A stretch of 64,000 nucleotides of DNA, taken from Marsupella aquatica. Its lineage: Eukaryota > Plantae > Marchantiophyta. The position numbers were made by a program, and so were the translations under genes. The DNA lies in the NCBI GenBank assembly GCA_973895155.1, contig OZ316893.1:5408171-5472170 (forward strand), written 5' to 3'. Under the pieces are notes generated by a model. The model had not been told where the DNA came from. It searched no databases and saw only the letters and a program-made list of their open reading frames with translations. The first letter of the stretch is position 1, and each line of letters starts with the position of its first letter. This document shows, piece after piece, positions 20,477-55,744 of this stretch.

Positions 20477-21787
20477 TCAAAGTCGAAGGGGAACTATGAA
20501 GGGTGTCACTAAGCGGTCAAATGCAGGACCCCCTTCTGTTTTCTCCCACAAAATTTCGGTGTCCTCGACCCCGAAGCCTTTACTTCGAAGAAGGCCTAGA
20601 ACGCCCGACATCTGGAAACGGGGACGTGGTGAGCTCGGTCCTGAGTCCAAGTGACGTATTCCAAATGATTCGGGCTGCAGGACGCTGTATTTAAATACTG
20701 CTAAGAGCTCCCCATCCAAGGGTACAATTGCTAGTGGTCCTACCTTCGGGGTGTCAAACAATCCTTCCATTGAATACGAAGAAGACTGTAGATGTGTCTT
20801 TGATCGGTTCTCAAGATCATAGACATAAATTGCCGACGGAGATATGCTATGCAATTTGCCTTCAGATGTGAAAAATGTTTGGTAAGCCGTCTCTTCCCAA
20901 GGACCTAATACGACTCTCCATGTATCCTGTACAGGGTTATAAATCTCCAAATAATTTGCTCTGCTTATGTCACTCCATCCCAATGGAATATTGTCAGCTG
21001 CAGCCCGCCGATTAGGTTTGCGAGAGTTCCCGCCGTGGACCAACAGGTGGTCTCCCAGTGTTCCAACTTGATGACCGAACCGCCAGCTTGTCATGGACTT
21101 GATCGCAGTCCAAGCATCGACTTCGGGATCATACACCTCTGCTGTAGCAACAGGTGTGTAACGGCCCAGGTGGTGAGTAATACCACCAAAAGCGTAAATC
21201 TTGCCATTGATAACCCCACATCCAAATTGATGTCTTGCTACTAGCATACTTGCACACCTTTTCCATGGCCTCAGCCCAGCCTGATCCAGCACATACACTT
21301 CATTACTGCTGACAAAGCTCGAGGTGGACCTTACATAAAACAATCCTCCCACAAGATAGAGTTTTCCATCCATCGTTACGCATCCGCATGCCTGTGGGAA
21401 CTCACTTCCAACAGTTGTGAAGCGAGGAAGCTGACAGCAAGCTTTGTCTTTTACAGAATAGAGAACAATGCCGTTGGGATTTCCAGGAGAATACCCATAG
21501 CTATCATATTTGATGACAGCAAGCGCCTCTGTTGAGTGAGAGCGAACTCTTGCGTTATACATTTCGCGACTTTCAGCTGCTTCTCTCCAAGGACGGCTTA
21601 CTGATGTTAGATTTTGAAGTGTTGTCCATCGCAAGAGTGTACTAATCTTGTGCAAGGCGATATTGTTAGAAATCCCTGGAAGCAATTCCGAGCTGGAGAC
21701 TTTCTCCTCGTCTTCCGTTTGATTTCTCTGTGGCAGTTGCTGCCTTACCGTAGCCGTGGCTTCCTCCTCGCCTGCTACACTGGCCAT
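20477..21787 (-). CDS. F-box/Kelch-repeat protein (436 aa, intronless)
   Basis: F-box-like LLPGISNNIALHKISTLL...VSRPWREA is followed by Kelch repeats: CVTMDGKLYLVGG, WKRCASMLVARHQFGCGVINGKIYAFGG, AEVYDPEVDAWTAIKSM, LEIYNPVQDTW. Confidence 0.92.
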   Translation of the reverse strand: MASVAGEEEATATVRQQLPQRNQTEDEEKVSSSELLPGISNNIALHKISTLLRWTTLQNLTSVSRPWREAAESREMYNARVRSHSTEALAVIKYDSYGYSPGNPNGIVLYSVKDKACCQLPRFTTVGSEFPQACGCVTMDGKLYLVGGLFYVRSTSSFVSSNEVYVLDQAGLRPWKRCASMLVARHQFGCGVINGKIYAFGGITHHLGRYTPVATAEVYDPEVDAWTAIKSMTSWRFGHQVGTLGDHLLVHGGNSRKPNRRAAADNIPLGWSDISRANYLEIYNPVQDTWRVVLGPWEETAYQTFFTSEGKLHSISPSAIYVYDLENRSKTHLQSSSYSMEGLFDTPKVGPLAIVPLDGELLAVFKYSVLQPESFGIRHLDSGPSSPRPRFQMSGVLGLLRSKGFGVEDTEILWEKTEGGPAFDRLVTPFIVPLRL

Positions 21788-24074
21788 CGCTTATGAATCC
21801 TCGTTACTATGCAACAACCTGTGGATGACTTCAATTGCCTTATGAATCCTCGTTACAACGTAACTAGGCTACCTGTAGATGTCTTCAATTGCCTTGACGA
21901 AATGGATTTTGCAGAACTATCTCTCTAGATACACAACGTACGTAACAATCTGTAGCTGCCTTCAATTGCCTTGACGGAATGGATATTGCAGAACTATCGC
22001 TTCAGATACACACGATTCAAGTCCCTCATCGAGACATGATCCCGTTCGACCTGCTGGACAGCAAAAACGAAATGCCGAACGAGGCAATGAATCGAACAGC
22101 AAGACCAGAATCTTGGCAAAACTGTCAGAATATCTGTGCCCCCCTTTGTTCAAAACCGACTTAACGTACTGGGAGGAAACCAAATTACTCATTTGGGATT
22201 CGATCTGACATGATGGAGATACAATACCCGGTATGCTGTTCTGAATCCTGAAGCTTGGCAAGTAATTCCAGGTTGAATAATCCGAAACGTAACGAGATGT
22301 TGTCTGTGACATAAGAAGCTAATCAAAGGCAGGTCCATTGAAACAAGAACGAGAAGAACGCTAAATCTGTACTCTAGCTAAGAGTTCCGCAAACTATTTC
22401 TATACAAATCAGAAGCGTAAAAACTGCAAGCCTACAGTTATATCGGGATCACTCAGTAGTTGACCCTTAATGTCTACATCAACGTACTTCAACACTGAAC
22501 AAGATTTTGGACCCGAGATAATACTGAGCCCAATATTGAAAGGAAAATCAAGCCATTCGCTTCATCAAGCCAAATAACGGTAACAAGAATTTGGGCCCGA
22601 GATAATACTGATGCCCAAAACGGAAGGGAAAGCCATTCGCTTCATCAATCCAAATAATTGCAACGAAGGTACCTTCTCGAATTGCCATCATCGAAGAAAC
22701 GGGTGTATCGAAATTTTTAATACGTACCGTCAGTGAAAGAGCCAAGTTTGTAGAAAGAGCCAAGTTTGTAGACACGACGTTCGTCCAGAAACACCGAAAT
22801 CTTTGAAGTTAGACCTGAGGAAAAGTCTGAAAGAGACAGAAACTGGTCGTCCGCAGGGACGAGCCTGAGAGCGAGAGAGAAACTGGTAGTCCGCACGGGA
22901 GAGCCTGAGGCTCTGAGAGCGAGCGAGAGGAAACGTAGCGTGAGAGGGAGGAGGCTCCTTAAATGGAGTTAAGGTCCACATCTCGTGTCTTTTCAGTATC
23001 AAGGTCGCGGTGTACGTACCCGGATAGATCGAGTAGGGCCGTTGGTGACCTGGAAAGGTTGGCTGCATGGATTTTGAAAGGAAAACCTGATGAGCTGTAG
23101 TCTGACCAGTAGTCTTTCACAATGACGAGTTCGCCGAGTAAACCCGATTGGGCAGTGTCTAGTGACTTGGAAAGGTGGGATGTGCGGATTATCAAGGAAG
23201 AAAACTGATGATTGTATGGTGACAGATTGGTCTGGTGGCTTGCAGTCATGAACGAGCGCGCCTGTACGTACTTGGCGCATTTACAGGATCGTTAACATGG
23301 GTTGTGGTGGGGTCGAGTCGGAACTACTTGGACGATAGCTAAGCGTGTCTTCTATTGTCGGCCCCCTACTTACCTCCAATCCGAATACCAGTGGCCGTCC
23401 CGACTGGAATTTGATGTATGCTCACCCTCGGCGCGTCATCAACACAGGCTAAGGAGAGTCTAAGCACTGACCATTGCTTCAATTAACACTTGTGCAACAC
23501 ACCACCAGTGCTTATTGATAGAGTATGGGGCCAATCATCGCTGTTATTCACCCTCCATCCGAATTTCTTCACGGAGACGTCTCTCTCGATTCGAGATTGA
23601 GAGAGACTAATCACTGAAAGTGCATTGATTTACTATCATTTATTGCATTTGTACTCTATCCTGCCGTCTGCCCCAGGCCCAAACTGAAGTACGCCATAAT
23701 TTTTTTCATTCAATCATTGAGGGAGAAGAATACCTGGAAATGGATGCACTAGACTTTTTTTTTTCATTCAATCATTGAGGGAGCATTGAGGGAGAAGAAT
23801 AACTGGAAGTGGATGCCCTCGAGTATATGCTTGATGAGAACATGCTAAAAGAATTTTCATGATAGACACTTATATGAAAATTTTGTTACAATTAGGCCCC
23901 TTGTCACACTTTTGTAATGTTCATTTAAAGTTCCTATAAGAGTGTTAGTTTGATATTTCAGTCCAACCATGTGGAATGACAAACTACACCACTGACATAA
24001 GGCCCAAAGACATAGCAAAGATCATGGCACGAAGGTTGATGACAAGGTATCGGGCAAGGGGCACACTTATGTTT

Positions 24075-26222: not shown

Positions 26223-26504
26223 CTCGGGGGTCTCACTATATGGGGACCTCCCCATCACCTGCGACGTTTTTAGGCCTCGCACCCCCTGAACTGTAAAGGA
26301 AATATTTTTTTAACCCCTATAAAGTCAAGAATATTCCAAAAAATGGATTAAAAAGACCCTGATGTTCTTATTAGTCTCAAAATTGAATTTAAAAGATCCT
26401 ATTGTTCTTCTACAAAAATTCTTAAGTCTTCCCTTAGAACCAATAAAATGACTTATCCTTCGTCGCACGTGATATGCCATTTTTGTGGAAGTAAAACCCC
26501 CGAG
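26223..26504 (+). mobile_element. MITE family A copy with 8-bp TSD CCCTTACC
   Basis: TIRs are CTCGGGGGTCTCAC ... GTAAAACCCCCGAG. CCCTTACC lies at 26215-26222 and 26505-26512. Confidence 0.9.
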
Positions 26505-27379
26505 CCCTTACCTCGGACTGGTTTATTATTAAATACTTTTTAAGATTGTCAGGATTCTCCCCATGGGATCCCTACAGGTCTATCTGGAAGGGGAGAAATG
26601 AGACACTTACAAAGCCATGTTTCTGGCTTCATTCCTAGCTAATACATAGGAAGTTACAACTACTCAAAGTTTGGCAATGAAGTTTGAAGATAAAATGAAT
26701 TAAATTTGGAGATTCTACGAAAAACTTGCCTCTAACTCCAAAATGTTTACATTGCCACATTTTTAAATTTACTTCCATGAGGCAAACATTGAAGAAGATA
26801 ATTATGGTAGTTGGAAGTAACCTGTAATTTTGGAAAACAACATTTAAGCACTTTGCCACTAAAGACGATCGAATTGACAGTACTTTTGCTGACACTTTTT
26901 CTTCACTTACATATATGCCACAATTTTGTATATGGACTACAAGTTCACCAGCATAACTAGGGAAATTATATACTAAAAGTGTGGCATATTTGTAAATACA
27001 GTAAAACAGTGGGAGAGTTGTAGATTTGAACATTTTTATAGCAATGCACTCAAAAGCTGTTTTGGAAAACAATATGAAAAATCAAATAAAGTTAGAAAAA
27101 TGTTTGTAGATCATGACCTGTAATCTAGTTGGGAGAGACACTTTCTAATCATTTAGGTGTTTTGGGCCAAATGGAATGCTCGTGGTCATTCTGACACCAA
27201 TTATTTTAATAGTCTATTATCCTATTCTAGTAGTGGCAGGAGTGGGTCAAGTGCAAGCAATCATCAAAAGTGTTGCAGTCTTTCAGCTTAGGACTTACTT
27301 GCATTTGAGGGGGCATGTCCATCTCATAATAAATAATTTGGGTTTTAATTTGTGTGCTACTCCAAGAGCTCCTTGAGGG

Positions 27380-27661
27380 CTCGGGGGTCTCACTACATAA
27401 AGGACCCCATCACCTGCGACATTTTTAAGCATTGCATCCCCTAAAATGTAAGAATTTTTTTATACCCTATAAAGTTGGAATATTCTAAAAATTTGATTAA
27501 AAGCGCCCTAATGTTCTTACAAGACTCGGACAATTAAATTGGATTTAAAAAACACTAAATTTCTTACACAAAAATTTCTAAGTCGTCCCTTAAAACCAAA
27601 AAAACTACCCTACTCATTGTCGCACGTGATGTGCCAGTTCTATGGAAGTGAAATCCCCGAG
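27380..27661 (+). mobile_element. MITE family A copy with 8-bp TSD CTTGAGGG
   Basis: TIRs are CTCGGGGGTCTCAC ... GTGAAATCCCCGAG. CTTGAGGG lies at 27372-27379 and 27662-27669. Confidence 0.9.
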
Positions 27662-29532: not shown

Positions 29533-30198
29533 CATCCCAATGCTCTTGTTTTGTCGATGGAGGGTCAGTTCAATCTTTAGCATCCTTCCTATCTTGTTAG
29601 CAAGCGGGTTAGCAAGTTCCTGCAACAAAGGAGATTCAAGCTATCATAGCTTAGCGCTCAGCTAAGGTCAGAACAAGAATGAATTTTGATCTGAGGTCAG
29701 AGGATTCAACTTTGATGCAAGAGAAATTCCTCAAAAAGGATTCGAAAGGATTCGACTCACACTTTGAGGTCAGTGACATCGCATGCAGCCGGGCCTGCAG
29801 CAAAGAAGTTCTTATACCCGGAGACTTGAGTTGTGGACTTTAGATTTAAAAGCCCATCCACAATCACTTGCTTCTTAAGAAACGGCGACTCTTCAATGCA
29901 TTTAATGACCACCTTCTTTCCAACTGCTACAAAATGTATGTCTGCTTTGATTCCAATGTGTTTTGCAGTTTCATAATTGGGAGCAGATAAGTTGTCAAGG
30001 TTTCCAACTCTGTCCTTCAAAATTACATTTACTCTTTTTACTTTGAGTCACTTCTCCATCTTCTTAGAAACTCTGGGGCCTAGAAACTCGAGCACCAAAT
30101 CTCCACAGTGCACTAGAGTGACGGCCTTCTGCAAGAAGTCGGTAACAATTTCTCCACCCACCCAGACCACCTCATGTTTTGAAGGACTGTTCATGAAC
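29533..30198 (-). pseudogene. AIFM2/FSP1-like FAD/NAD(P)H oxidoreductase pseudogene
   Basis: Translation reads GGEIVTDFLQKAVTLVHCGDLVLEFLGPRVSKKMEK*LKVKRVNVILKDRV...IKADIHFVAVG...QVSGYKNFFAAG...DVTDLK. It has a TGA at 30050-30048 where Trp is expected, an eroded GGGxxG motif, and a DLK|E splice junction to an exon remnant at 29619 containing a frameshifted IDKTRALG C-terminal motif. Confidence 0.75.
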
Positions 30199-32893
30199 TA
30201 ACAATATAGAATCGCCGATACATATTGAGGACATACATCTAGAAGGTGCGTGAGAACTGAGATCACTACTGGAAATTGAAGTGCTCTCTCTTCAACATGC
30301 AATGGTCATTGCAAGCATCCTGCTAATGCATAAACTTCTTCGCAGGCTTTGAACTCTCCACAATTTTGGAGATGACAATGAGGCCAAATGCTTGAGTTTG
30401 CTTGAAGTGACTCATGGTAACAAGTTAATAATTCCTGAAATGGCTGTATAGTACTGTGCGAGAAAGTGACTCCTGAATTACAACTGATGCTTCTACAATC
30501 GGACCAGCTCTATCGCGCTGTCAGTAGTGTCCAACTGAGCTCCGTGCTGACTAAAATAGACGAGATGTAGTAAGGACGCTCCTGAACACCTTAGCTAAGA
30601 CAATTTTCTTGATGAAGAAACGGCAGCATACAAAATGAGCACGGAAATGCTTGAATCACTTTGTTTACTACTTGGTCAAATTTACTTTAATTTGATTGTA
30701 GATACAACTAATGTCGAGGAAAAGGCTTGACACTGGGTTAGATTCACCTAGATCCCAAGACCCAGTTAGTAATCATTAAGGAAATTCGCGCCTCTTCTAC
30801 AGGATCCGGATTCCAATCGAGATCCGGCTAAGTATCTATTCGGCTACATTGCCCTGAAGCTCAAGGTCGTGGCTAGTACTTCGGCAGGAATTGTCACCTA
30901 CAAGTATGCAAGTTGTTGGACGTTTCAAATGAACGAATGGGTTCCATTTCATTCGATAAACCCAAAGCAGGTGCTAGACCTGTCGACCAGGTTCTTCTCT
31001 GCAATGGTTTCCTGCTCTTGGATTAGAAGACACTCATGATTGTTTTATGCACTGTCCAATTCAGCTTTCTTCTACCTGGAAAAGGTATTGTTTCAGAGCT
31101 GGACGAATGTCTAAGGGCTGGGATATGGAACAAAGAATAACCCTCTACTTCGATCCCGCTGCTCAATTCCACAACTACGGCATAGTATGGAACAAAGAGT
31201 GCCTCACTTTGTAAGTCACCTTCAATTATTTCAATCTTCGTCCCAGTAGAATGTCACTCGTCACTTATGACTCCTGATGATGGATTTGGAGCTATATATT
31301 TCATTGGCATATATTTTGATGGGTTTTAATATTGCTCGTGTTGAATCGCCCCATTCCCTTCTGCTTACATTCGTTTTTCTGAGTGCACTCAATGCGTTGC
31401 AGTCTGTCTGTCTCTTCCATCAGTGCCACTAGTGTCAACTGTTCAGGAACTAAGACGGAATAATAAATATGTTAGGTCCAAAAAGACCTCATCCGACCCT
31501 TGGACCAACAGGAATGTCCCAGAGCCGAAATATGGGCAGCGACTTCAGGAGATAAACAAAAGGGCAGATCCGGATCCCCGTTCTCAACTACAACTCATTG
31601 ACATAAATAACCCTTTTCTGGCCGGCGCAACAGTGTTAGAAATTGAAAAGCTGATTGGCCAACTTAAATTTTTATAATCTCAGGGAATATAGCATACACG
31701 AAGATTTGAGATTTGCAAAGAGGCTAATGATGACTGGCTTCGTTGCGGAAGCTTTTCGACTGCTGACCTTTGCAACTATCAAAGAGGTGCGTGAGGGCGT
31801 ATGGTTGCACACAGTAGCTATTGTAACTAATTGAGGCGGGGCTCTACAATTATTTTTCTAGGTCTCTCTTTTCTAGATCTCTCGTTTCTAGGTCTCTCTC
31901 TGGGAGAGACCGTCTACAGCTTTAGGCATAATTACCATGGTCACATCCTTACAGTTACAACAAGCTTATGATGTGTGATTATCCTATGCTAAGATAGCAA
32001 TCCTTAATCCGGGCACCGGACCTGAATTCAAATTCTACCAGGGTCATGGGTAGAATTACCTACACCAGGTTATCAACTTTTGCGAAGAAGAAGACCTCGA
32101 TCAAACAGCTGTGTTCCATCCCTTTTGATGAGAAAACCTGCACAAGCCAGAAAACCATTAGCTCGTGGTTAGATATTGGATTTGCTATTGCTATTATAAT
32201 TATTGCTGTTATTTCCAAAAGCCGGCCTCATAACTTCGGGCGTACGTGACAATACGTGATCAACCACTATTCTCAACAACACTTTGACTGCCCAGTTTCA
32301 TCAGAGCAAGCAAGGTCTCTGACAATCCGGGGACTCTGCCTTGCTGGAATTTTACTTCTTACAACTTCATGTCGAATTGATTCTGTGCAACAGCTTAGAG
32401 AAGAGGTGCTGCTCTTAATGCATCGAATGATATAGACCTCCTCTTTGAAAAAAACTCACATATGATAGCATGAATAAGGATATTCGTCCTATCACTGGAA
32501 CACTGAAATTGCCAGGCATAATCCTATTGTGTAAGCTTGCGGATGATTCATGGCTAGTTTATTGACACGAAAATAATGTAGAATTGATCTGTATCGATTC
32601 TTCAATTTCTAGTCTTCATTGACGCAAAACAATGAGATTCTGGAGCGAAAGAGGTTGTTTCAATAGACTCTCATGTGTGCCACACAACGTATTCAAATGT
32701 GGTTAACAGTCATGATAATATGCAATCTAAGATATTCCTGACAACATGTCATACGTGTGATGAAAAATGGAAACGTCGGAGGTTCAGTTGGCCTTGTGAT
32801 TAAAGAGCGCGGAAGCTACCTTTAAAAGTATTGTAACTTACCAAACGGCTCTCTCCAAGTTGTTCTCCTTCTTGTTTCTCTGTTTCTTTCCCA

Positions 32894-34354
32894 TTATTCA
32901 TCCACAAAGTACCGATAACAACTTTTGATCTTTCTCCCAGATGCTGTTCGAGAAACCAGAAACTGCTGCGTTTTCACCATTGTCTCTAGCTCCTTATCCA
33001 CCTGGGCATTAGTCCCACCCTTGCTGATCCTCAATTGCTCCTGGTCGTCTGGGAGAAGTAGAGCTTGGAGGGCAGATACCGCCGGGGAACCAAAGGAAGC
33101 AATTTCGGAAAGAAGTGGTGGATTGAGCATCCACAGACTCGATGGAGTTCTATCGAACAGTGAAGAGCTGTTGGTAGCTGTCTGTGGGACATTCCAAAGA
33201 GCATTAGCTATCACTTCCCCAAGATCAGCCATGACTTTGTCTGCAACATCGTCGTACTCGTACACGTCATCATTCACAATTTCATTCCTATTTGTGTAGA
33301 TGACTGCAGTTAAGAAGAAGCTCTGACCTGTCTCTATGTCCAATACGTAGGCATTGTCTATTGTGAACCCATAGGCACGTCCAATCTTATTGTAGATGCG
33401 GATCGCCCCCTTACTTCTCACTCGCGCAACCCCAGGCAAGAAAAATTTGCCGTAGTCATCCGGATATTCAGCTCTGTCATAGCAAGGATTGGACGATGAT
33501 GCTGGATACTGGCTCATGGCTTCCAATAACATCATTCGGACGTCTCCACCAGTTTTGAAACCATGAGTCCCTGCTGGTTTCAGCACCTCAACGTCAGGCC
33601 GCACCAACTGCACAAGTAGATTTTGCAGGTCCATTAAACTGATGTGATTTTTCAATGAGAAATCCATTGGCTCCCCGATCAGCTCTCCATGTTCGGTCAA
33701 ATGGGCGTTACCCACTAAGACCCCCGGTATGGATCCATTATCTGGCACCTGAAGTTCACTTCTCTTTGGAGCCAGAACGTATGGAATACCATTCACATTC
33801 ACTTCAACTGGTTCACAGCAATGGTTCACAGAAAGTGGCAGATCAATTGAAAGGCGATGATGCAACCTTACGTTTTTAAAGCCCTTGTCCCACATGATCT
33901 GATTGAGAGACCGGTGGCCCACAACAGCATAGAGGCGGTTGAAAGCCTCATTGTCTGAAACCAAGAACAATTTCCGAATCTCGTGCGCAAGAGTAATCTT
34001 ATGCTCGTTCAAGTTTGTTGGATCATACTTCTTTTCTTCATCGTCCTCAAGAAGCGGGTAAAAACATATCGGAGTGGCCAAATGAAACTCTCGATATTCA
34101 GGCAAACCATACCGTTCTTCAAGCTTTTCAGCGGCGGCCACAACTGCAGCCAGCTTGATTGCGCTCGCTGGATAGAAGTACACTGCATCCACACGGTACC
34201 CATGGCGCACGAGCTTCCTCTGGCCGAATGGGTGGCGCTCCACTTGAGAAAGCAGCACCTGGAAGCGAAACTGTGCAGCATTTTGAAGGACATGCCCAAA
34301 TTTATCCGGGTGAGCAACCAATATCCTTTCAAGCAGGCCCCCTCCTTCCTCCAT
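32894..34354 (-). CDS. Serine hydrolase of the class A beta-lactamase/penicillin-binding protein fold (Beta-lactamase2-like), 486 aa, intronless ORF
   Basis: The three active-site motifs appear in canonical order: YFYPAS64AIK67 (SxxK), LVS133DN135EAFNRLY (SDN) and IYNK323IG325RAYG (KTG-like). They are followed by FTIDNAYVLD...FFLTAVIYTN.NEIVNDDVYEY and a ~100-aa S/P-rich C-terminal tail. Confidence 0.85.
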   Translation of the reverse strand: MEEGGGLLERILVAHPDKFGHVLQNAAQFRFQVLLSQVERHPFGQRKLVRHGYRVDAVYFYPASAIKLAAVVAAAEKLEERYGLPEYREFHLATPICFYPLLEDDEEKKYDPTNLNEHKITLAHEIRKLFLVSDNEAFNRLYAVVGHRSLNQIMWDKGFKNVRLHHRLSIDLPLSVNHCCEPVEVNVNGIPYVLAPKRSELQVPDNGSIPGVLVGNAHLTEHGELIGEPMDFSLKNHISLMDLQNLLVQLVRPDVEVLKPAGTHGFKTGGDVRMMLLEAMSQYPASSSNPCYDRAEYPDDYGKFFLPGVARVRSKGAIRIYNKIGRAYGFTIDNAYVLDIETGQSFFLTAVIYTNRNEIVNDDVYEYDDVADKVMADLGEVIANALWNVPQTATNSSSLFDRTPSSLWMLNPPLLSEIASFGSPAVSALQALLLPDDQEQLRISKGGTNAQVDKELETMVKTQQFLVSRTASGRKIKSCYRYFVDE

Positions 34355-37300
34355 GGTATACTACATTAGGGCTGCCTGATCATGTACACCTAAGGCTGTG
34401 AATAATCCCCCCTGTTATTGTAAACCTGTGATCATGAGCTTACCGATTGGATTTTTTTTCTGGTTGAGGAAGAGGCCGTGGATTTTGACGAGCTTAATCT
34501 TTCTCAAACACAACGGATGGTCATGCATTCAGAACATCCATTGCTCAATTCAGACCCAAAATTCAATTCTAGCCACGCCAGTTCGGCTATAAGTGCAACA
34601 CCGTCGAATCTTGTTCATCCTAACACAACCTAGGATATTTGGACCGGGATATCCACTTGGGATAGGGGAGTGCTTCTGAGAACAAAATGGAATCCAACCC
34701 GCAGCTCTTTTGTCACCGAAAGTTCACTCTGCAATCTTGCCCCTGCGCTCGGACTAGAAATAGGTGCAACAGACTGTTTGACCTAATCGGAGCTCAAGTA
34801 AGATCAAACAGTGCCAGAGACAGACCGATGGAGTCTGACAGCAATTCAGCCGGCAAAAGCATGAGTTCTACTGGCCATCAAGTTTAGTTACAAAGGCAGG
34901 GCTCACCATCGATAGCAAGCAGCTGCAGCTATCTACGACAGAGATCGCCGCTGACACTCAAATTGCTGACCGTAGTTCGACTGCTAACAAATTTGGCTGT
35001 CATTCAGCGGCTTTCTCTGCAAATTCTAATAAATTTCACAATGGAGTGGAACTTCATGGCTCGTTTGGTCGAGAGCTGAAACTCACCGTCAGAGTTTTCC
35101 TGCCCGAGGAGCTCGATGCGAGCAGGTAGGCGAACTTGTGGGATTCTGCAAAGCCGGCACTCAGTGGGTCAAGTCCACTCTTCAGTGGAGTTGTAATTGG
35201 AGAATTGATTCCTGTGGACAGTTCCTGAAGCCCAGCGCGCGTTCCATTTAGGTGACAGAAGAGTGACATACCTCCACATTTTGTGAGTGTCAAGTATATG
35301 ATTTATGTATACAGCAAAGTACTGATTACAAGGCATTGTGGTATATAATGCCCTGCAAAACGAGAACTTCTACTCGAGTTTTGAGAAGCTATTGTATAAG
35401 GTTCTACTCGAGTTTTGAGGCGCTATTATATAAGGCTCTGGTAACATGAACTCCATCCGTGGCTAGCCATGACAACACCTGGGTACATCAGGTTTCACCA
35501 TTAAAAGTGCCTTTTATCCTGAAATGGTGGAGCAAACTGGCACAATAGAGGAAAGAGTAAAGGAGAATCAGAGTGATAATCCGACTTATTTATGGTGAGT
35601 GGTGAATTAATACACTTAAAGACTCAGGAGATTTTTCTTTTCAGTAATTTTGTCAAAAGGATAACAGAAGGATTGTCAAGGGGTGTGTATTCTTACAATC
35701 TCCAAAGTACTTGTTTCAGACTTCCAACACTCTCTAAAGAAACTGACCAAATAGACTAAATATGCATTTGGCAGGGCCAAAAGAAATAAACAAAAGCTCG
35801 GATGGACTCAGACATTGTCCTTGCCTGTCTCCATGGACTGTGTAAAGCATTTGTTGTTTCACACCAAAAAGAAAACAAAACCGGTCGTAGATTGTAGTTG
35901 ACAACTTTGTCTACCTTGGGGAGAAGGTAGTCAAGTCATCATGGAGATCCTGAATGATGGCGTCTTGACATCTTTCAGGTTCAAGGTCCTCAAGTCATTA
36001 AGTTACCAAGTAAACCAGGTTGGTGATGTAGTTGAAACTGGCTACAAAGGGTAAGAAGACTGTTTAGAGGTCACATTTCACTCCAAAGTGTAAACAGTGT
36101 TATTTGAGTCAATTTAAATGTACATCTGGGCTTCATAGTCAAAGCGGAGGTACATCTAGCTTTATTGGCTGAAGTATGTTTAGCTATGTGATGGGGTCCC
36201 AAAAAAAGCACCCAAGATATTGTTATCAAAAATACATACGACTGCAATCTTGGATTGAATTAATGGACTTCTATACAATTTCCCTTGTTCTAAGGAGACC
36301 AAAAAAATACAATGTATTGTACACAATATTTGTATTCAGTCAAGATCATGATGGCTTGAGAGGAAAGAGATGAGGGGAACATGTAATGATTTGTTTTAAT
36401 AATTTGTTTTTTCTTTTTCACTTTGTTCAGCCTAATGTGCCCAAACCCCTTTGGTCACGGGCCTGGTAAACATTGGAATAAATTGAATAACTAACCTACA
36501 AAAGATTTTTAAAAATCTGAAGTGTAGTTCCCTCCAGTGAATAGTAAAGAATTCCGATTCATGTGTGCATCCAAAATAGCGTAAGCTGAGCTCAAATGAA
36601 CGCTTCTCGGTTGGTGAGCTTTTCATTGGGCTAAGGGTGTCTCCCAAATTCTCCAGAGCTCCATGAATCTCGATATATTGTCTTAAAGATACAATCGCGA
36701 CAGGAGAATGATGTCTCGAACGGCGTTGCAGATCTCAACGACGTGTCTTTGGATGACGACTAGAACGTTCTGTCCTCTCATGACGAGTCACGCATAAATT
36801 ATGTTTGTGTTCTCATAGGGTTCTCAGTTTTTTTCGAGTAAACCAATCTACTGAAATGGGAGCTGTGCAGCCATAGCAGTCAGTGACCAGCTCGACTACT
36901 GTAAAAGCTCATCAGCCTCCTCGCATGCCTTTATCCCAGACACCATTGTAATCCGTAAAATACTGAATCCGTGCGAGCACTTGTAATAGTTGTACTCTAG
37001 GATTGTTACTCTCGCAAGTTAACCTTGGCGAAGATCGTCGACGCCCAGTCACGTGCTTTGCATACATGCTTGTTTCTTTTCCTCACCAACCGACTGTCTA
37101 TTCGATTTTCTATCGAGCTGGAGTGAACATATTTAGAACAGTTTTCTTTATCTTGCTAGTTAATGGCTTGCAGATTTTTATCAAGAATTTCAGACGATTT
37201 GGTCAATTGGCTAGCTTTCTAAAGTGGCCCACGAAAACTCATGAGACGAACTTGGCGATACTTTCAAATGGAGAAGCCATAATTTCTCATAATCAACACA

Positions 37301-38585
37301 AATCTGGATCACTACAGAATAGAAGTATCACCGTACTACTGGAGTGTGACCACTACAGACGAAATTTCAGATGAATTATCCAACGCCTAGTTATGCTGAA
37401 CGACTTGATTTCTCCAATTTGTTTGTTTAGTGCGAATTGGGTGTGCTCGTTACTCTCATGGACATCGTCCTAACCATACAGTAGCTGTTAAATGGGTGCA
37501 CATTAAAGTTACACATACAGATGTGCGATTTGTGTGTGTTCGTTGCTCTCATAGATTCTGGCCTGTCCTCGGTAGTTTACGTCAGAGGTACCAACAACCA
37601 GCATTTCACAGTTCTTCATTTATTTGACTCTTTTTCAATACTTCGGCTGCAAGGTCATCCACAGTATTAGAATTTCATGGGCCGCATTCATACGTTCTCT
37701 ACACAGGGAAGATTTGGTTTGGGCATACAAAGAAGTAGCATATGAGTCCCTTTGGATTCAAAGCCATAAATTAGACGTTGACAAAAATAGCTAGTCATGT
37801 TTTCACTCGACTGTCCCCGCTTAAGATGATCTGTCTCGAACTGATTCAGAATCGCAAGTGACTACTGACCTAACAAATAGTCAGGGTTCAAATCGATAAA
37901 TCAGTGAATAATTATCCATCATTGTGTTATATAGGATCGATAGCCGCCTTAAAACTTCTCAACCAATTCTGAAACTCATCGACGCTGTTAATAATGAGTT
38001 CACTCCGATAAGGAGAGTTCCCTCCGATAGCTAGGTTGATCGATTGAAAGATGTTTGAAATTAAGTTAGTGGGGTACACAGAAATTCGAACCTCAATAAC
38101 GATGAGTCACTCGGCACATTCAATCTGTCGAAAAATCATAAGTGGAAATACATGTCCAAAATGGAGCCCGGCGGTACATTACTGCAAAGTGCAATTTCAC
38201 AGATCTCGAGCTGTAGGACAAAAATAGCAACCGCAACGCTGATAATGTCTTTATTCAAAAATTTTCATCAGTTTCCATGCCCATCAGTGTTGCGCGACAA
38301 AGTCGTGACACGGTCATTCCTACTTGAATTGAAGGACTCAAAACAACAATCGTGCGAGCATACAATGTGGCGCCTCTGCGAAACAAGCTTAAGACTTCTT
38401 CTGTGATATTCAAAGATCCAAAAATCGTACAAACCCGCCAATGGCGGACATTTTGGCCATACCAAAAACTACGAAGCACATGCGACGAACCGCATGATGT
38501 GATCAGTGCATCGACCGACTGTGAAACCGTAGCTATGGAACTATCTAACCAGACACCTATTGTGAACTGATCGTCGGCAGATCGA

Positions 38586-39167
38586 TCAGCCCAAGTTGTT
38601 CTGGGAGATGTTGAAGTACTTCATGTTTGGGAAAGTCGTGGTCGGAGTCGAATAGCAGCCGGGCAAAGCGCCGCTCAACTGGTTGTCAAAAAAGTCGAAA
38701 GTAAGGAGCTGACCTAGCTGGCAGAGTTCTTTCGGGAGACCACCAACAATGTTACATGACTCGAGGCTAAGGACTGACATAGTGGTCATGGTCGCCCAAG
38801 ATGGAGGGATTTCCCCGTTGAAGGCCACATTCTTCATGGTCAAATTCTGCAAATAATTCAAACCAGTGAGGGCGGTTCCCATGTAGTAGGGGCTATTGTT
38901 CGGAGGGTAAGGCGGGTTCTGATCGATATTCTGGATATTCAGATCAGTCACATGACCATTGCCGTCGCACGTCACTCCATTCCAGGTGCAACAGTCCGTA
39001 CCATCAATCCACGTATCGAACTCCTTTCTAGCGTAGACGAACTCACGGCAGAAGTAGAGCAGCGCAGAGTTATCAGTAGAGTCGCACGTTGCCGCTGTGG
39101 CAACCTCGACGCTAACTGAAAGAAGTATGCAGAGCACGACAACTTTCCCAGGGCTACCCATGGTCAT
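38586..39167 (-). CDS. Secreted leucine-rich-repeat protein (signal peptide + LRRNT_2 + ~3-4 LRRs; PGIP/RLP-like, possibly truncated)
   Basis: Hydrophobic leader VVVLCILLSVSVEVATA; CDSTDNSALLYF...WIDGTDCCTWNGVTCDGNGHVTDL cap; plant LRRs (LQNLTMKNVAFNGEIPPSW, LSLESCNIVGGLPKELCQL, FDFFDNQLSGALP, FNISQNNLG*). Confidence 0.85.
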   Translation of the reverse strand: MTMGSPGKVVVLCILLSVSVEVATAATCDSTDNSALLYFCREFVYARKEFDTWIDGTDCCTWNGVTCDGNGHVTDLNIQNIDQNPPYPPNNSPYYMGTALTGLNYLQNLTMKNVAFNGEIPPSWATMTTMSVLSLESCNIVGGLPKELCQLGQLLTFDFFDNQLSGALPGCYSTPTTTFPNMKYFNISQNNLG

Positions 39168-40439
39168 TCTCACGATGAGGCTACGAAACTGTCAGCAAGA
39201 ATAATCAAAAAATTAGATGCAAATTTTCGTCAGTTTCCATAGCTCGTACCTGCATTACAACCCATCCACCTGAAACATTGCGTCAATCAGAAACCAACTC
39301 TATTTCGATGAATACAACACTGATAGTCAGCGGACACAAAAACACTACTCAGCCATGACATGTCGCCTTCCAAAATCGTATCAGCATGATGAAGGAGACC
39401 CACCTACAATCTAGCACAACGCATCGAAACTCGACATCAAGTTCATCTAACCTGGATCCAGTTTTCACTGTGCAATGGTGCTTCTCCTACGAGCTCAGGT
39501 GAAGCATTCGGTGAGTGGGATCGATGGATCGTCCGCTAGACAACTATCCTAGTCCTGGCCGGACCGCTACGAGCAAACTGGTTTCTGAAACAGGAGTGGC
39601 TGAATATCAGAGGCACTGAAGTTATATATTTCTGTCGGTCTCTCAATTGGAAATCGAAGGAGCAGCTGGAGAGTCGTTCGTGATCTCTTGCGCGCCGCAG
39701 TCCTCCCACATCCGCACGCTGTACTCTTCTACTCCGTTTGGATCTCCCCGAAAAAGTCAAAGTGGGCAGTAGCATCTCGGCCCAGCCTAGAGAATCCTTT
39801 CTTGGGTGGCTCGGCAACCACCGAACCGCCTAGCATAGCAGAAGGGGGCTACTACGGAAATTAGCGTGGACTCCGGGCAACATCCGCCCATGGCACGGGG
39901 CTAATTACTGCCCAGCTGACTGGGAAGCGCCGGTTCCACCAATCTTTCCAATCTTCGTGCGTGACAGCAGGATGCTACTGCTAGTCGTACGCCTGTACTC
40001 AGCGTGATGTTTGGTTCGCCGTTGGTTCGCTATCAATAGCACCAAGACAGTAGCCTGAGCTGATACGATCAATTACGATCAGGTCCAAAAAGTCGCACCC
40101 CCCAATTTGCATTGGGAGTACATTATTACTGTCAGTGTCGTAGAAATGAATGCCTGACTATTTTATCAACAATGGCAGCTGGAACGCTGGATGGATCCAT
40201 TCGGGAAGGTCTCACTTGGGGAGCGTGAGGTCCAGAAACTACGCTGACTTGCATGTCTTCAATACGCAAGATTTGCAATTTGCAAAGTCGACTCCACTAG
40301 TGCACAGTTGTGGCAGGCCTCCGACACGCTGCTACGATTTGCAAGTCTACTCCATGAGTTATGTGCACATATCAATTTGGAGAAATAACCAACTCTCCAA
40401 GTGGCAACTTTTTACCATCTACCTACAGTATGTATGTAT

Positions 40440-40472
40440 GAATCGAATCGAATCGAATCGAATCGAATCGAA
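40440..40472. repeat. (GAATC)n microsatellite
   Basis: Perfect pentanucleotide run. Confidence 0.95.
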
Positions 40473-40651
40473 AAATAATAATATGGAATTTAACTCTTTG
40501 CCCATGGTTTCTTTCCCAAAATATGAAAATAATGTCATTCGAGCCAGAAGGGCCTCCATGGGTGAGTCATTATGGCAACATTTTTTCTAACCATGAGTTG
40601 AACCTTAAGGTGCCATTGTGTAATTTTTTTGTGCCCACCCTGTCACTCATG

Positions 40652-40872
40652 TAGCATGCTGGTCCTGGAACATGCTTGATTTTTTTTGTCTTGTAATGAT
40701 AGGTAATGGATAAAATATGAGAGTGGAACTAGAAATTAAAGCCATTGGTTTCACACACTTGAATTCCAAGAGATAACAAAGATTAAAAATTAAGAGGGCT
40801 GCCAAAATAAGTTCAAAATTCTATATGATCAAACCCATGACCAAAAAAATCTGAATAAGACACAATCTGAAA
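40652..40872. repeat. Dispersed repeat family B, copy 2 (internally shorter)
   Basis: Shares collinear blocks with 8435-8990. Confidence 0.6.
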
Positions 40873-43407
40873 GGAAGATTCTCCATATAGCAGCTTCAAA
40901 AACTTTATGTGCCCAACCTTATCACTCACTGTCCCCACAGCTTGCACACTCCTTGAAATGTAGTTGTCATGCTGACTTCTGACTTGCCTGTACTGTCCAA
41001 GTTGCCATCCTCACTGGTGCTGGAAAACCCTTCTGTTTAACATCACTTAGTGTCAACAATATTATGCAATATCAATTAGTCTAATTAGTCCTGATTGTTT
41101 AATCTCTAACCCTTTCATATCATGAAAATATAAGGTTCTGTCAGGGAGTAAAGTTATATTGTGGTACTTTAAAGTTCTTGTGTCCATCTGAGTATTAGTG
41201 ATAGCCATTTGTGTCATCTGAGTATTTATGTTAGCCATTTGTGTCCATCCCAGCTTCCCCTTTTGGAGCATTCAGAACACTAGTATGTTCAATTCAAAGA
41301 TATATTGAGAAATCAAGGGGCAGGGATGGCAAACCACGTACACAGCATGAGGGATGGTGAAGGACTTTGCACAACAATTGAGGAGGAGGAGAAAGATTAT
41401 TGTAGTCCTTTTGTGACCAATCAATTAAAGCCCACTTTAGTCAGATCGAGGCCAGTAAGTATATTCCACACTAGTAGAGAAATAATGCAATCTTCATACT
41501 TGAAATTGCAGCATCACTAGAACACTGAAGCAGAAATCCCCCTTACACAAGAGCCATCGGCCAGGAAACTCGTGGCCTCACTTCACCCATGATATCTATG
41601 GGATGGGCAACAATTAATCTGGCATTGCACTATGTTACTTCAGTCATTGGCCTTTCTGATTGCCCCGCTAATGTTTTTCAATTACTAACACTTACAACTG
41701 ACAGGGAAAAAAAGGTGTAATTTGGATGACATTTGGTTCTAAGCACGTTTTTGGCATTTTCACCAGAGTAGAGCCAGAAACTATCACTTCTTGCTAATGC
41801 ACACTTTACACTGCTATGTGGCTCAATAAATTTGTGTGAGTTTCTTTTGTGCGAAAAGAATAAAGAAACTAAAGACCAGGGGAATTTTGTTGTGGCTTTT
41901 AAGGACAAAAGGAGAATGAAGCGTTTTAGATTTTGGAAGACATTCTCGGAATAAAACTCGAGCTTCAGAAAGTTTCTATGTTCCCTGGAAAAGAAGCAAG
42001 AACCATAATTCATACAAAGGAGGAAATAAAGTACAATGAGGTAAAGCAAAAGAGGTCCAAACAAAGAAAACTTTGGAGGAGAGAATGTGGCTTTAATGTA
42101 AAGAGTCAAATATTTCTTTTATTGTGGAAAGGGGGAACAGTGCCCTAACATCAATAAAACAGAGGTGATGCCAACGAAGGCCAAATCGCTTGCAAGTAAG
42201 CTCGGGGGCCTCACTCCAAGGGGGTCCAATATATATCAAGTGCAAAGTTTTCAAGTAATAAATACCCTAAAATTAACCTAAGAAAATAAAGTAGATTTTG
42301 TAGTATTTTTCAACCCCTAACTTATGGAATATTCTAGAAATATACATTTGGTACTTAAAAACCCCTATAGTTCTTATACGCCTTAAAATTGGATTAAACC
42401 ATGCACCCCTATATTTCTTCAACAAAACTTTTAAAGTCTTCCATGCAATAGAATTTAAAAAGACCCCTACCTTGTTCGCGCCCAATGGGTCGAAAGAAAA
42501 GAAGTGAGTACCCTAGGCAAGCAAGCCAAGGCCCAAGTGGTAAAGTTGGGAGACTCTGCCGAAGCAGAGATAAATGAGCAAGCAAAACTAAGGGGTACTG
42601 GCAGTGAGCCCAGACCAAGGGCCCAAAGTTTGTAAGTAATAACTAGTTCGTGGACCCCCACCTGTTTTGATTGAAATTGAAAAGTAGATAGTTATAGGTT
42701 AGTTTCTCATCTGCTGCATCTTGCTTCGCCGGGGTTGCGAATTCGACCACATCTGCTGTCTAATTGAGGTGTTTGTCCTTCTTGCTTTCCTGTGGATAAC
42801 ACTTCGCCATTCCCTGTACCAATTTGAGGGGTATCACTTTCTTGCTGTACCAAAATTGAGTCTGCTAGTTTCTTGGTGACAGTTTGTGGGAGAGCATCCC
42901 CTTTTGCCAAAGCTAAAGTAGGCACTTCACTTTCCCCGGACCCAATTTGTGGAGTATCCTCAGCTTTCTTTACCGCTGAGCCTTTTCTCAATATTGTCTT
43001 CAACGCTGCGTCCTTGTCGTCTGTTGCCTGCACCTCAGTGCCCTTATCCTTGATTTTCTTCACCTCTACAGGGAACGGTTCCTCTGATCTCTTCTGGCAA
43101 TTTCGATCGTGTACTGTCCTTATGAATTGTTCGCAATTCTTCCTTGGTTGAGTGATTGGTTTCTCCTTCAAACTAATTCCTGAATTTCTCCTTCTTTTTG
43201 CTTGATCAGCATACAGTCTCTTCGATTCCTTTCAGTGATTTTCGTTGTTCCCTTTCGCCTCGGTTCTTACTGGCTTGCTCTTTGGAGTCTCCGGGAGTTG
43301 GACCTTTGTTTATAGCTTGTATCTTTGTAAGTGGAACGTAGTCACGTAGACGAGGCCCTTATTGGACCCTGCTAAGCTTGCTTCTCTTTCGTTCGCTCGT
43401 GCCTCAT

Positions 43408-53900: not shown

Positions 53901-54352
53901 ATCTGAAGGTGAGATGTACTTGATGCTGAGAGATTCATGGCAGCGATAATGAAACTTACTTCGACTAGCAGTGTCTGCGTGAGCACAATCTCGTTATGCC
54001 GGAGAAGTGTAGTGTGTCCTCTGAGTAAAGAGTAATGTACTTCTTGTAGTGAAGCTGGGTTCTAAGTGACGAAGCCTAGTACAAGTGCAAGGAACGATCA
54101 CATTTCCATAGTCGGTTCCCACTTTGTCGGGTTTACCACGCCTTTTTGCTTCGTAAAGGATGCAATCCTCGTGAGTAGGGAATGTTATTGCCGCTGTTGT
54201 AATTATATCGAATGCTATATATTGGTTCTACGCTGACTGCTGAACGATACAGCAGTTGTACCTTGACCTTACTGCTATCTCTATGGTATTGACAAACGTG
54301 TGTGTGTCGAGCAGGATCTAGATCGACAACTTGTCGTCAGTTTTGGAACACC

Positions 54353-55744
54353 ATGGCGAATAGTCAAGGGAAAGCTTTGGCTATATTCCTCCTCATTGGA
54401 TTTGTTGCTGTTTCAGTAGACGCGAAATATAAGAAACCTTATCATCCCCCGAAACCTCCGTCCGCTGGTGGAATTACCCTCCCCGATGTCTGGTCCCGCT
54501 ACGGTCTGAAGGCGAACTACTACAATAAGACGTGCCCCGCTGCTGAAAGTCTCGTTACTGCAGCTGTTAAGGCAGCATTTGCAAATGATCCTTCCATCAT
54601 TGCTGGGTTGATCCGATTGTTCTTCCACGATTGCTTTGTGAGGGTAGGCTCTCGGTTATTCTCCTCTGACATTTGTGGTTGCCTAGATTGACCCCGAATC
54701 TGAATCCCTCTTGATAAGGTAATAGTCAAAGCCTAGCAGCCTGTGTTGCATTTTGGCTGATTTTGATTTCCATCATTCTTAGAGATTTTGAACATTGTTC
54801 GATTCTCCAGGGATGTGACGCCTCGGTGCTTCTCGACGGGTTAGATACTGAAAAGCAAGGTGCCCCCAATTTGAACTCGCTCCGAGGATTTGAAGTGATT
54901 GATGCTGCCAAGGCTGCTGTGGAGAAAGTCTGTCCTGGAGTCGTATCATGTGCCGACATCGTCAGTTTTGCCGGTCGCGACAGCATTGTCTTGGGCGGAG
55001 GCTTCAATCCATATGGATGGCCAGGAGGAAGAAAGGATGGAAGCACATCGCTCTCTGCCGAAACTCTCACAAGCCTTCCCCCACCTTTTGACAACTATAC
55101 TCAACTTGTGACCGCCTTTGCAAATAAGGGCCTCAATCAATATGAGATGATTACCCTCTCAAGTATGTATTGTCAAGTAATCTTGCTTTCGCTGTTGTGA
55201 GATCCCCACTGATTTTCTCTTAACGTGTGGACTGAACTGTCTCAAGAGTCGCGGTAGCCGCTAGAATGGTTGTCTTGCCTGTATGAGGATTTGCATGTCG
55301 ATCAGGCTACATATCATATCTCTAACATTCTGTTCGTCCACTCCAGCTGCACACACTGTGGGGAGGGCTCATTGCGCTATTATTCTAGCTCGACTTTATA
55401 ACTTCAAGGGAACTGGATTGCCAGACCCAGCAATCGACAGCAACTACTTGAAGGTACTGCAGGGAAAATGTCCCCAAAGTGCCCCTGGTAACCTCGTCAA
55501 TATGGATATGACGACACCCACCCGGCTCGACACTAATTACATAAAGGATGTATTGGCACATAAGGGTCTCTTTGAGTCAGACAACGCCCTGCAGACGGTT
55601 GCGCAAGGACAGTTTACCCTGAGAATCTTGGAACGCCCGAATGTCTTCCCCTACGCATTCACCGGGGCCATGCTGAAAATGAGTACCATTCAAGTGCTGA
55701 CGGGACCTCAGGGTAAGATTAGAACAAATTGCCGAGTAGCATGA
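54353..55744 (+). CDS. PRX: Class III secretory (haem) peroxidase, 3 exons
   Basis: Exon 1 is 54353-54643 (signal peptide, YYNKTCPAAE, LIRLFFHDCFVR|GT). Exon 2 is 54811-55162 (GCDASVLLD, SLRGFEVIDAAK, CPGVVSCADI, GRKDG). Exon 3 is 55347-55744 (AHTVGRAHC, DPAID, KGLFESD, AMLKMSTIQVLTG.QGKIRTNCR). Confidence 0.96.

What the first reader, a model, noticed from the sequence alone, without database searches (positions are those of the whole stretch)
32894..34354. Intact bacterial-type beta-lactamase/PBP-fold serine hydrolase in a plant nuclear genome (HGT candidate)
Seen: a 486-aa intronless ORF with SxxK (S64/K67), SDN (133-135) and KIG (323-325), flanked by spliceosomal plant genes and MITEs, so simple contamination is unlikely. 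Established: these three motifs define the penicilloyl-serine transferase superfamily (class A beta-lactamases, DD-peptidases), and mosses retain plastid peptidoglycan. From recall, strings such as YFYPAS..K, LVSDN.A.NRLY, NK.G.AYGF..DNAY and NDD.YEY resemble uncharacterised Bacteroidota-type serine hydrolases. Inference: a horizontally acquired enzyme that may act on beta-lactams, bacterial or plastid peptidoglycan fragments, or another amide/ester substrate in plant-microbe interactions.
Basis: partly seen in the sequence, partly recalled or inferred. Interest (0 to 1): 0.8.

Follow-up and report, generated by a model that had tools for sequence, protein, structure and literature searches.

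The report
Ancient plant penicillin-binding-fold enzyme, peptidoglycan-linked
This is a real liverwort nuclear gene for a bacterial-type penicillin-binding-fold enzyme, with relatives from glaucophyte algae to ferns; it is probably not an antibiotic-destroying enzyme or a recent transfer, and it likely helps break down fragments of the chloroplast's bacterial-style peptidoglycan wall.

Summary
The 486-aa ORF (32894-34354, minus strand) and its three motifs are real. It is a host gene. A contig joins it to a plant LRR gene, the Calypogeia orthologue (77%) shares its flanks, and a relative's probable RNA contig skips a 5'-UTR intron. It is not a recent or Bacteroidota-derived transfer. Named orthologues occur in 15 species: Cyanophora, prasinophytes, streptophyte algae, bryophytes, lycophytes and ferns. 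They form one clade (97/97) within an uncharacterised family from Planctomycetota, Acidobacteriota and Myxococcota-type bacteria. No named angiosperm, red-algal or cyanobacterial hit appeared. The predicted fold is class A beta-lactamase/PBP-A (Z about 22-23). The deacylating Glu166 position holds Leu168, as in the DD-peptidase PBP-A, so beta-lactamase function is unlikely. Three lines point to peptidoglycan. Bacterial homologues lie beside lysA, dipeptide epimerase, murQ or amidase in 40 of 156 loci. The Cyanophora orthologue is fused to a DigH-like glycosidase. The range matches lineages that keep plastid peptidoglycan. Best reading (about 0.5): a probably cytosolic muropeptide peptidase for plastid peptidoglycan turnover, acquired once near the root of Archaeplastida. 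Substrate and location are untested. None of ten literature searches surfaced a paper on it.

The parts
32894..34354 (-). Coding sequence, 486 aa, PF13354 serine hydrolase
   Evidence: dN/dS 0.26 over residues 1-390 against the Calypogeia orthologue
33185..34354 (-). Catalytic domain, residues 1-390: class A beta-lactamase/PBP-A fold with about 130 residues not aligned to class A enzymes; S64/K67, S133-D-N135, K323-I-G325; L168 at the Ambler-166 position
   Evidence: AF2 pLDDT 84.5; Z 22-23, rmsd about 3, about 250 residues aligned; register
33254..33292 (-). Family-specific acidic/aromatic loop N355..N361-D362-D363-x-Y365-x-Y367 before the last helix; likely part of a substrate- or metal-binding site (inferred)
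   Evidence: near-invariant in plants and bacteria
32948..33124 (-). Poorly conserved, predicted disordered linker, about residues 411-469
   Evidence: pLDDT under 50; variable in length among plants
32894..32926 (-). Green-plant C-terminal motif (aromatic-x-Y-F-hydrophobic-D/N-E at the very end); function unknown
   Evidence: 17 of 30 eukaryote rows match, 0 of 272 other rows under a slightly stricter pattern; alignment
34355..35086 (-). Probable 5'-UTR intron: donor at 35086, acceptor not fixed (candidate AGs 6-105 nt before the ATG)
   Evidence: a relative's contig in run X7 skips 730 bases with 61 other letters between; donor motif
35087..35209 (-). Probable non-coding first exon (minimum extent)
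   Evidence: aligned piece of the X7 contig, with a net one-base indel against the window

Best explanation
The gene encodes a serine hydrolase with a predicted class A beta-lactamase/PBP-A fold, inherited within a clade that spans glaucophyte and green plants, and it likely acts as a peptidase on peptidoglycan stem peptides (mDAP/D-Ala muropeptides) released during plastid peptidoglycan turnover, probably in the cytosol. Shown here: the ORF, the motifs, Leu at the Glu166 position, one eukaryote clade inside a non-cyanobacterial bacterial family, no N-terminal extension in nearly all eukaryote orthologues, the peptidoglycan/mDAP gene neighbours in bacteria, and the GHL10 fusion in Cyanophora. 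From established family chemistry: Ser64, activated by Lys67 with Ser133 and Lys323, attacks a peptide carbonyl to form an acyl-enzyme; without Glu166, beta-lactams would acylate it but leave slowly, as in PBP-A. Inferred: one acquisition near the root of Archaeplastida; loss of the bacterial export signal; retention with plastid peptidoglycan and loss with it; a muropeptide substrate; a cytosolic location.
For: Origin: orthologues in 15 named species. IQ-TREE LG+C20 puts 21 of 21 rows I labelled eukaryote in one clade at 97/97, with Zygnematophyceae plus land plants at 100/93. Without the three unnamed rows the 17 green rows stay one clade (SH-aLRT 95), and the tree holding Cyanophora with them is 60 lnL better, p-AU 0.94. 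Klebsormidium's gene spans 4174 bp for 447 aa in nine tblastn pieces, so it has introns. Chemistry: fold tied between class A enzymes (Z 22.9) and PBP-A (Z 22.2), above other DD-peptidases (Z 15-18). L168 aligns ungapped with PBP-A L158, which PMC7514474 (Table 1 passage) equates with TEM-1 position 166; 0 of 23 eukaryote rows have Glu at 167-169. PBP-A is a DD-carboxy/endopeptidase on muropeptides (PMC11189452, abstract and introduction). Substrate clues: among 156 bacterial loci, lysA in 22, L-Ala-D/L-Glu-epimerase-like in 13, diaminoacid-dehydrogenase-like in 6, murQ in 4, Amidase_3 in 3, M15 dipeptidase in 2, any of these in 40. The label changes 17 times on the tree (36 of 142 rows). In 5 of 5 Thermoanaerobaculia-class genomes checked, the genome's best lysA match is the gene directly upstream. 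The Cyanophora orthologue and two unnamed relatives carry a GHL10 domain, 25% identical to E. coli DigH (E 1e-20), a peptidoglycan glycan hydrolase (PMC12288456 passages). The range fits the lineages that keep plastid peptidoglycan (PMC7455551 passages), whose moss form contains mDAP (PMC9434261 passages).
Against: No activity, localisation or mutant data. 116 of 156 bacterial loci show none of the six neighbour types; many loci are short, kin share neighbourhoods, and no background control was run. The KTG hydroxyl that binds the D-Ala/beta-lactam carboxylate is replaced by I/V/L/C in 23 of 23 eukaryote rows, so a classic D-Ala-D-Ala substrate is not assured. Plastid peptidoglycan lies in the intermembrane space, while the protein shows no transit or signal peptide (judged by length and hydrophobicity only). 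No named hit came from Marchantia, Micromonas pusilla or gymnosperms, which have peptidoglycan genes, and Cymbomonas's peptidoglycan status was not checked. The word-index searches also missed known orthologues such as Physcomitrium, so absences are soft. A quick free tree without the unnamed rows did not join Cyanophora to the green clade; a 437-row FastTree left the eukaryotes unresolved at 6 changes; the bootstrap had not fully settled.
Confidence: 0.5

Rival explanations
1. An old cytosolic amidase or esterase that kept the fold but acts on a substrate unrelated to peptidoglycan, for example a D-amino-acid amide or a small metabolite.
For: KTG hydroxyl lost, about 130 extra residues, invariant H166-R167 and the N-D-D-x-Y-x-Y loop reshape the pocket; no targeting signal; the fold also serves esterases and D-amidases (Z 15-18); most bacterial loci have unrelated neighbours.
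Against: Repeated association with lysA, epimerase, murQ and amidase in several bacterial lineages; GHL10 fusion; no named hit in lineages without peptidoglycan.
Confidence: 0.25
2. A muropeptide hydrolase aimed at bacterial rather than plastid peptidoglycan: scavenging of ingested bacteria or clearing of microbial fragments.
For: Same chemistry clues as the best reading; present in Cymbomonas, a bacterivorous alga (diet recalled, not from a call); no plastid targeting signal.
Against: No secretion signal, so it is unlikely to reach the apoplast or a food vacuole; the range follows plastid-peptidoglycan lineages, and no named hit came from angiosperms, which meet bacteria constantly.
Confidence: 0.15
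3. A working beta-lactamase that protects the plastid penicillin-binding protein from environmental beta-lactams.
For: Best structural matches include class A beta-lactamases; SxxK, SDN and K-x-G are intact.
Against: Leu at Ambler 166 in the query; L/F/V in 23 of 23 eukaryote rows and Glu in 0 of 414 other rows at that column; no hydroxyl at 235; the query has no match to NCBIfam bla_class_A; no export signal; ampicillin blocks moss chloroplast division (PMC8227023 passage).
Confidence: 0.05
4. On origin only: the gene came with the cyanobacterial endosymbiont, from a lineage that had it then, rather than by a separate transfer.
For: Presence in both glaucophytes and green plants dates it to about the time of plastid origin; PMC6704402 (section 3.5) leaves this open for other peptidoglycan genes.
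Against: No cyanobacterium among 56 genome loci or among named hits; cyanobacterial PBP-A is only a remote match (E 0.003). Cyanobacterial genomes could not be searched directly.
Confidence: 0.2
5. A recent liverwort-specific transfer, or bacterial contamination of the assembly.
For: The coding part has no intron and bacterial hits reach 47% identity.
Against: Plant hits outrank all bacteria; conserved flanks in Calypogeia; one 9.8-kb contig at flat depth joins the gene to an LRR gene (that run may be the source sample); GC 0.478 matches host genes; spliced relative; plant clade.
Confidence: 0.02

Closest known systems
PBP-A of Thermosynechococcus elongatus (cyanobacterial class-A-like DD-peptidase; PDB 2j7v)
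   Same: Fold (Z 22.2, rmsd 3.1, 249 aligned); SxxK, SDN, K-x-G; Leu at the Glu166 position; best PDB hit of the family profile (E 0.0027).
   Different: 18% identity; about 130 extra residues; K-I-G instead of K-T-G; no membrane anchor; a different bacterial family, not cyanobacterial. PBP-A's activity is measured, this protein's is not.
Class A serine beta-lactamases (CTX-M, TEM) and the class A precursor LRA-5
   Same: Fold (Z 22-23) and acylation motifs; Pfam PF13354.
   Different: No Glu166, no Ser/Thr235, 13-21% identity, no signal peptide, a C-terminal linker and motif.
Uncharacterised PF13354 'serine hydrolase' family of Planctomycetota, Acidobacteriota, Myxococcota, Verrucomicrobiota and Bacteroidota
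   Same: Direct homologues, 28-47% identical over the catalytic domain, same invariant residues.
   Different: Most bacterial members have a hydrophobic N-terminal leader (102 of 137 by a crude scan, 39 lipobox-like); plant members lack it and add a C-terminal tail.
Known plastid peptidoglycan enzymes (MurA-G, MurJ, MraY, Ddl, class A PBP; DipM, VanX, VanY, DacB/PBP5 listed for Cyanophora)
   Same: Similar range of lineages and mostly non-cyanobacterial origin (PMC7455551, PMC8227023 passages).
   Different: Not named in the lists read (PMC12681378 passages, PMC6704402 section 3.5); no evident transit peptide; predicted breakdown rather than synthesis. Table S7 of PMC6704402 could not be read.

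Membership tests
Penicilloyl-serine transferase (SxxK) superfamily | SxxK, SxN and K-T/S-G motifs on the alpha/beta penicillin-binding fold | tested here: met
   Motifs; fold; the third motif is the variant K-I-G
PF13354 Beta-lactamase2 | Score above the Pfam gathering cut-off | tested here: met
   32.6 bits against 22
Class A beta-lactamase | Glu166 general base in the omega loop | tested here: not met
   L168 by ungapped register with PBP-A L158 and with CTX-M-15 anchored on G156 and F-R-L; S169 if shifted by one; no Glu at 167-169 in 23 of 23 eukaryote rows. The register is from sequence; no residue-level structural alignment was available
Class A beta-lactamase | Ser/Thr at Ambler 235 | tested here: not met
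   I324; I/V/L/C in 23 of 23 eukaryote rows
Class A beta-lactamase | NCBIfam bla_class_A cut-off (200 bits) | tested here: not met
   No match for the query; relative P0195 scores 29.9 bits
Class A beta-lactamase | Fast beta-lactam hydrolysis | not testable with these tools
   Needs an enzyme assay
PBP-A family | Class A fold without Glu166 | tested here: met
PBP-A family | Cyanobacterial family, about 30% identical to class A, with an N-terminal membrane anchor | tested here: not met
   18% identity to PBP-A, closest kin non-cyanobacterial, no anchor. It works like PBP-A at most; it is not a member
PBP-A family | DD-carboxypeptidase/endopeptidase activity on muropeptides | not testable with these tools
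   Needs an assay
Plastid peptidoglycan enzymes | Restricted to lineages with plastid peptidoglycan | tested here: inconclusive
   Of 15 named species, 14 belong to groups that PMC7455551 and PMC8227023 list as keeping the pathway; Cymbomonas unchecked; eukaryote genomes could not be searched whole
Plastid peptidoglycan enzymes | Plastid targeting signal or plastid localisation | tested here: inconclusive
   No N-terminal extension in most orthologues; no targeting predictor was available; the role of the C-terminal motif is unknown

The most novel reading that the evidence does not exclude
This is an unrecognised, founding component of the plastid peptidoglycan system: a PBP-fold muropeptide peptidase gained once from a non-cyanobacterial bacterium by the ancestor of glaucophytes and green plants, moved from the periplasm to the host side of the plastid envelope, and kept only where plastids still build peptidoglycan. 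It would be a host-side salvage step for chloroplast wall fragments; Cyanophora joins it to a DigH-like glycosidase, and green plants may position or regulate it through a conserved C-terminal motif.
Probability: 0.35. Interest if true: 0.75.

Novelty: new variant of a known kind. Interest (0 to 1): 0.5.

Why it matters
The synthesis genes of plastid peptidoglycan are known, but the papers read here say little about how its fragments are removed or recycled. This family gives a specific candidate with a testable gene in a knockout-friendly moss (Physcomitrium LOC112295621) and a two-domain version in Cyanophora. It also adds a likely peptidoglycan-linked gene of non-cyanobacterial origin to the debate on how the plastid was assembled. 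It corrects the database label 'beta-lactamase class A domain' for these plant genes and offers a first functional lead for a large unstudied bacterial family. If the substrate proves unrelated, it remains an ordinary ancient gene of unknown function.

Tried and rejected
No whole genome is held for the window, so copy number and the host's Mur/PBP genes are untested. A single-sequence PDB search found nothing; the profile found only remote class A-like chains. No match in plasmids or viral contigs. No RNA holder was listed for the window's own sequence; this is no evidence on expression. A complex prediction of the catalytic domain with the C-terminal 32 residues gave no verdict. Apparent LysA fusions in L001 and L002 are overlapping-frame artefacts: lysA is a separate upstream gene. 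The Closterium GH5 fusion may be a merged gene model and was not used. One possible splice would give the window an in-frame N-terminal extension; I rejected it as unlikely because the relative's first exon has a net one-base indel and 61 other letters and Calypogeia shows no matching exon, but the host's own transcript was not seen. hhalign against CTX-M-15 covered only residues 50-148, so the omega-loop register rests. The linker dN/dS of 1.9 rests on 60 synonymous sites and a poor alignment and was not interpreted; that script failed on its last segment. Earlier scan notes gave nothing. Rows dropped: L129 and L137 (long branches) from the later trees and residue counts; near-duplicate cluster members. 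Prevalence of the family: 15 of 201 genomes in the phylum of G004 and 8 of 201 in the class of G001.

Full report
Observation. The ORF is present at 32894-34354 on the minus strand, 486 aa, with S64-x-x-K67, S133-D-N135 and K323-I-G325. It passes the Pfam PF13354 cut-off. GC is 0.478, against 0.474-0.517 for six host coding segments in the window. One 9,868-base contig of run X1 covers 30600-40418 at flat depth and so joins the gene to an LRR gene; X1 may be the source sample, but a contig from a second study covers 33121-34649. The Calypogeia fissa gene is 84% identical in DNA and shares non-coding blocks on both sides, so the host is most likely a leafy liverwort (inference). A 2,272-base contig of a relative in run X7, RNA by guess only, covers the coding part and skips 730 bases upstream; a canonical donor lies at 35087/35086. 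The gene is a normal host gene with a probable 5'-UTR intron.

Range. Named orthologues came from Calypogeia (two copies), Ceratodon, Klebsormidium, Cymbomonas, and the JGI sets Chlat1 and Mesvir1, which I read from recall as Chlorokybus and Mesostigma; Closterium; Physcomitrium, Spirogloea, Selaginella, Diphasiastrum, Adiantum nelumboides, Prasinoderma and Cyanophora paradoxa; and Adiantum capillus-veneris. That is 15 species. The Klebsormidium gene has introns. No named hit in the three lists of 120 was an angiosperm, gymnosperm, red alga, core chlorophyte, Marchantia, Micromonas or cyanobacterium. Only about a quarter of hits carry names and these searches missed some true orthologues, so absence is suggestive only. 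PMC7455551 (passages) lists Cyanophora, Prasinoderma, Micromonas pusilla, streptophyte algae, bryophytes and ferns as keeping plastid peptidoglycan, with loss in red algae, core chlorophytes and most seed plants. PMC8227023 (passages) adds Selaginella and says most of these enzymes are non-cyanobacterial.

Origin. A first FastTree of 279 rows gave one clade of 15 plant rows (support 91) among hits named Planctomycetota and Acidobacteriota, apart from Bacteroidota. A 437-row FastTree on a quick alignment left the eukaryotes unresolved, at 6 changes, partly because unnamed rows fell among them. On 65 rows chosen from these (21 labelled eukaryote, three of them unnamed and labelled by me from their placement; 44 bacterial), IQ-TREE with LG+C20 gave one eukaryote clade at 97/97, Zygnematophyceae plus land plants at 100/93, and the Bacteroidota-containing subfamily apart at 100/100; the bootstrap had not fully settled. 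Without the three unnamed rows, a quick search kept the 17 green rows together (95) but not Cyanophora; the tree holding all 18 together was 60 lnL better, p-AU 0.94. The donor cannot be named, because the bacterial backbone is unresolved. I put vertical inheritance in green plants at about 0.9 and a single origin shared with glaucophytes at about 0.7.

Anatomy. AlphaFold2 gives a confident domain (residues about 5-390), a disordered linker and a partly ordered end. The fold matches class A beta-lactamases (Z 22.9, rmsd 3.1, 254 aligned) and PBP-A (Z 22.2, rmsd 3.1, 249 aligned) equally, ahead of other DD-peptidases and esterases at Z 15-18. The family profile aligns its H-R-L without gaps to PBP-A N-P-L158, and L158 corresponds to TEM-1 position 166 (PMC7514474, Table 1 passage). 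Anchoring on CTX-M-15 gives the same residue, L168. That column is never Glu in 437 rows; 31 of 414 non-plant rows have Glu one place on, and 0 of 23 eukaryote rows do. Position 235 lacks the hydroxyl in all 23. PMC11189452 (abstract, introduction, start of results) describes the omega-loop glutamate as the key difference between class A enzymes and PBP-A and shows PBP-A to be a muropeptide DD-peptidase. The catalytic domain is under purifying selection against Calypogeia (dN/dS 0.26). 102 of 137 close bacterial hits have a hydrophobic leader by a crude scan. Eukaryote orthologues start within about 23 residues of the domain, except one Selaginella model and the Closterium fusion. 17 of 30 eukaryote rows end in a conserved aromatic/acidic motif that is absent from 272 other rows.

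Substrate clues. In 156 bacterial loci, tblastn with seeds identified by Pfam and NCBIfam found lysA in 22, a dipeptide-epimerase-like gene in 13, a diaminoacid-dehydrogenase-like gene in 6, murQ in 4, Amidase_3 in 3 and an M15 dipeptidase in 2; 40 loci had at least one, mostly on the same strand and within a few kb. These fall in several lineages (17 changes over 142 rows), but no background control was run and 116 loci show none. In five Thermoanaerobaculia-class genomes chosen for having the linkage, the adjacent lysA is the genome's best lysA match. The Cyanophora protein and two unnamed relatives carry a GHL10 domain; E. coli DigH is GHL10, aligns with it at E 1e-20, and degrades denuded peptidoglycan glycans (PMC12288456 passages). 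GHL10 is a broad family, so this is a lead. Other bacterial members are fused to C39-like or M14 peptidases, an esterase or an amidohydrolase.

Mechanism and odds. Most likely (0.5) the enzyme uses Ser64 to cleave mDAP/D-Ala stem peptides shed from plastid peptidoglycan, on the cytosolic side. The chemistry follows from the family; the substrate and the location are inferred. Rivals are another amide or ester substrate (0.25), bacterial peptidoglycan as target (0.15), a true beta-lactamase (0.05) and recent transfer or contamination (0.02).

Literature. Ten searches, pairing beta-lactamase, PF13354, carboxypeptidase, hydrolase or DipM with plant, algal and plastid terms, listed no paper on this family. 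'Lactamase' did not occur in the main text of PMC12681378, PMC13069868, PMC6704402, PMC9434261, PMC4815162 or PMC11135702. The library lacks most subscription papers, and the supplement of PMC6704402, whose Table S7 lists Cyanophora peptidoglycan genes including a dacB/PBP5, could not be read; it may bear on novelty. Databases already hold the orthologues as uncharacterised 'beta-lactamase class A domain' proteins.

Verdict. A real, ancient, apparently unstudied plant gene; a new variant of the class-A-like SxxK hydrolases, not a member of the class A beta-lactamases or of PBP-A. Less surprising than a fresh transfer, but a directly testable candidate for plastid peptidoglycan turnover. Interest 0.5.

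Noticed in passing
P0183 (Cyanophora paradoxa tig00000849_g4756), P0195, P0284: PF13354 plus GHL10 (DigH-like) two-domain fusion in a glaucophyte and two unnamed relatives; a candidate bifunctional peptidoglycan hydrolase with no N-terminal extension.
   Followed up: partly
L058, L059, L062, L065, L117 (upstream of the match): Recurring same-strand cluster: diaminoacid-dehydrogenase-like gene, BioF-like PLP enzyme, lysA or murQ, then the serine hydrolase; may be an undescribed mDAP catabolic operon.
   Followed up: partly
L016, L020, L021, L028, L033, L038, L109, L170: Amino-acid permease plus DUF7790 (LIC_10091-like) lipoprotein directly upstream of the family gene in Fibrobacterota, Myxococcota and unnamed loci; DUF7790 occurs in 12 of 156 loci.
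   Followed up: no
P0199, P0224, P0240, P0281; P0275; P0251; P0336: Unnamed, presumably bacterial fusions of the domain to C39-like peptidase, M14 carboxypeptidase, CBM20-esterase or amidohydrolase domains.
   Followed up: no
P0169: An unnamed algal orthologue ends in a hydrophobic stretch that looks like a tail anchor instead of the usual C-terminal motif.
   Followed up: no
L057:11513-11852: The 3' end of the Calypogeia gene is repeated twice just downstream of its stop codon.
   Followed up: no
window:26000-28700, 35600-36700, 40400-40900: High-copy repeats by contig depth; a 19-nt inverted pair at 26490-26508 and 27376-27394 may bound an element of about 900 bp.
   Followed up: partly
window:1509-3965, 20477-21790, 38586-39191, 54293-55744: Ordinary plant genes: NAC transcription factor, Kelch-repeat protein, LRR protein, class III-type peroxidase.
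   Followed up: partly
window:14951-15918 and 29757-30047: Short coding-like frames without a Pfam match; possibly exons or gene fragments.
   Followed up: partly
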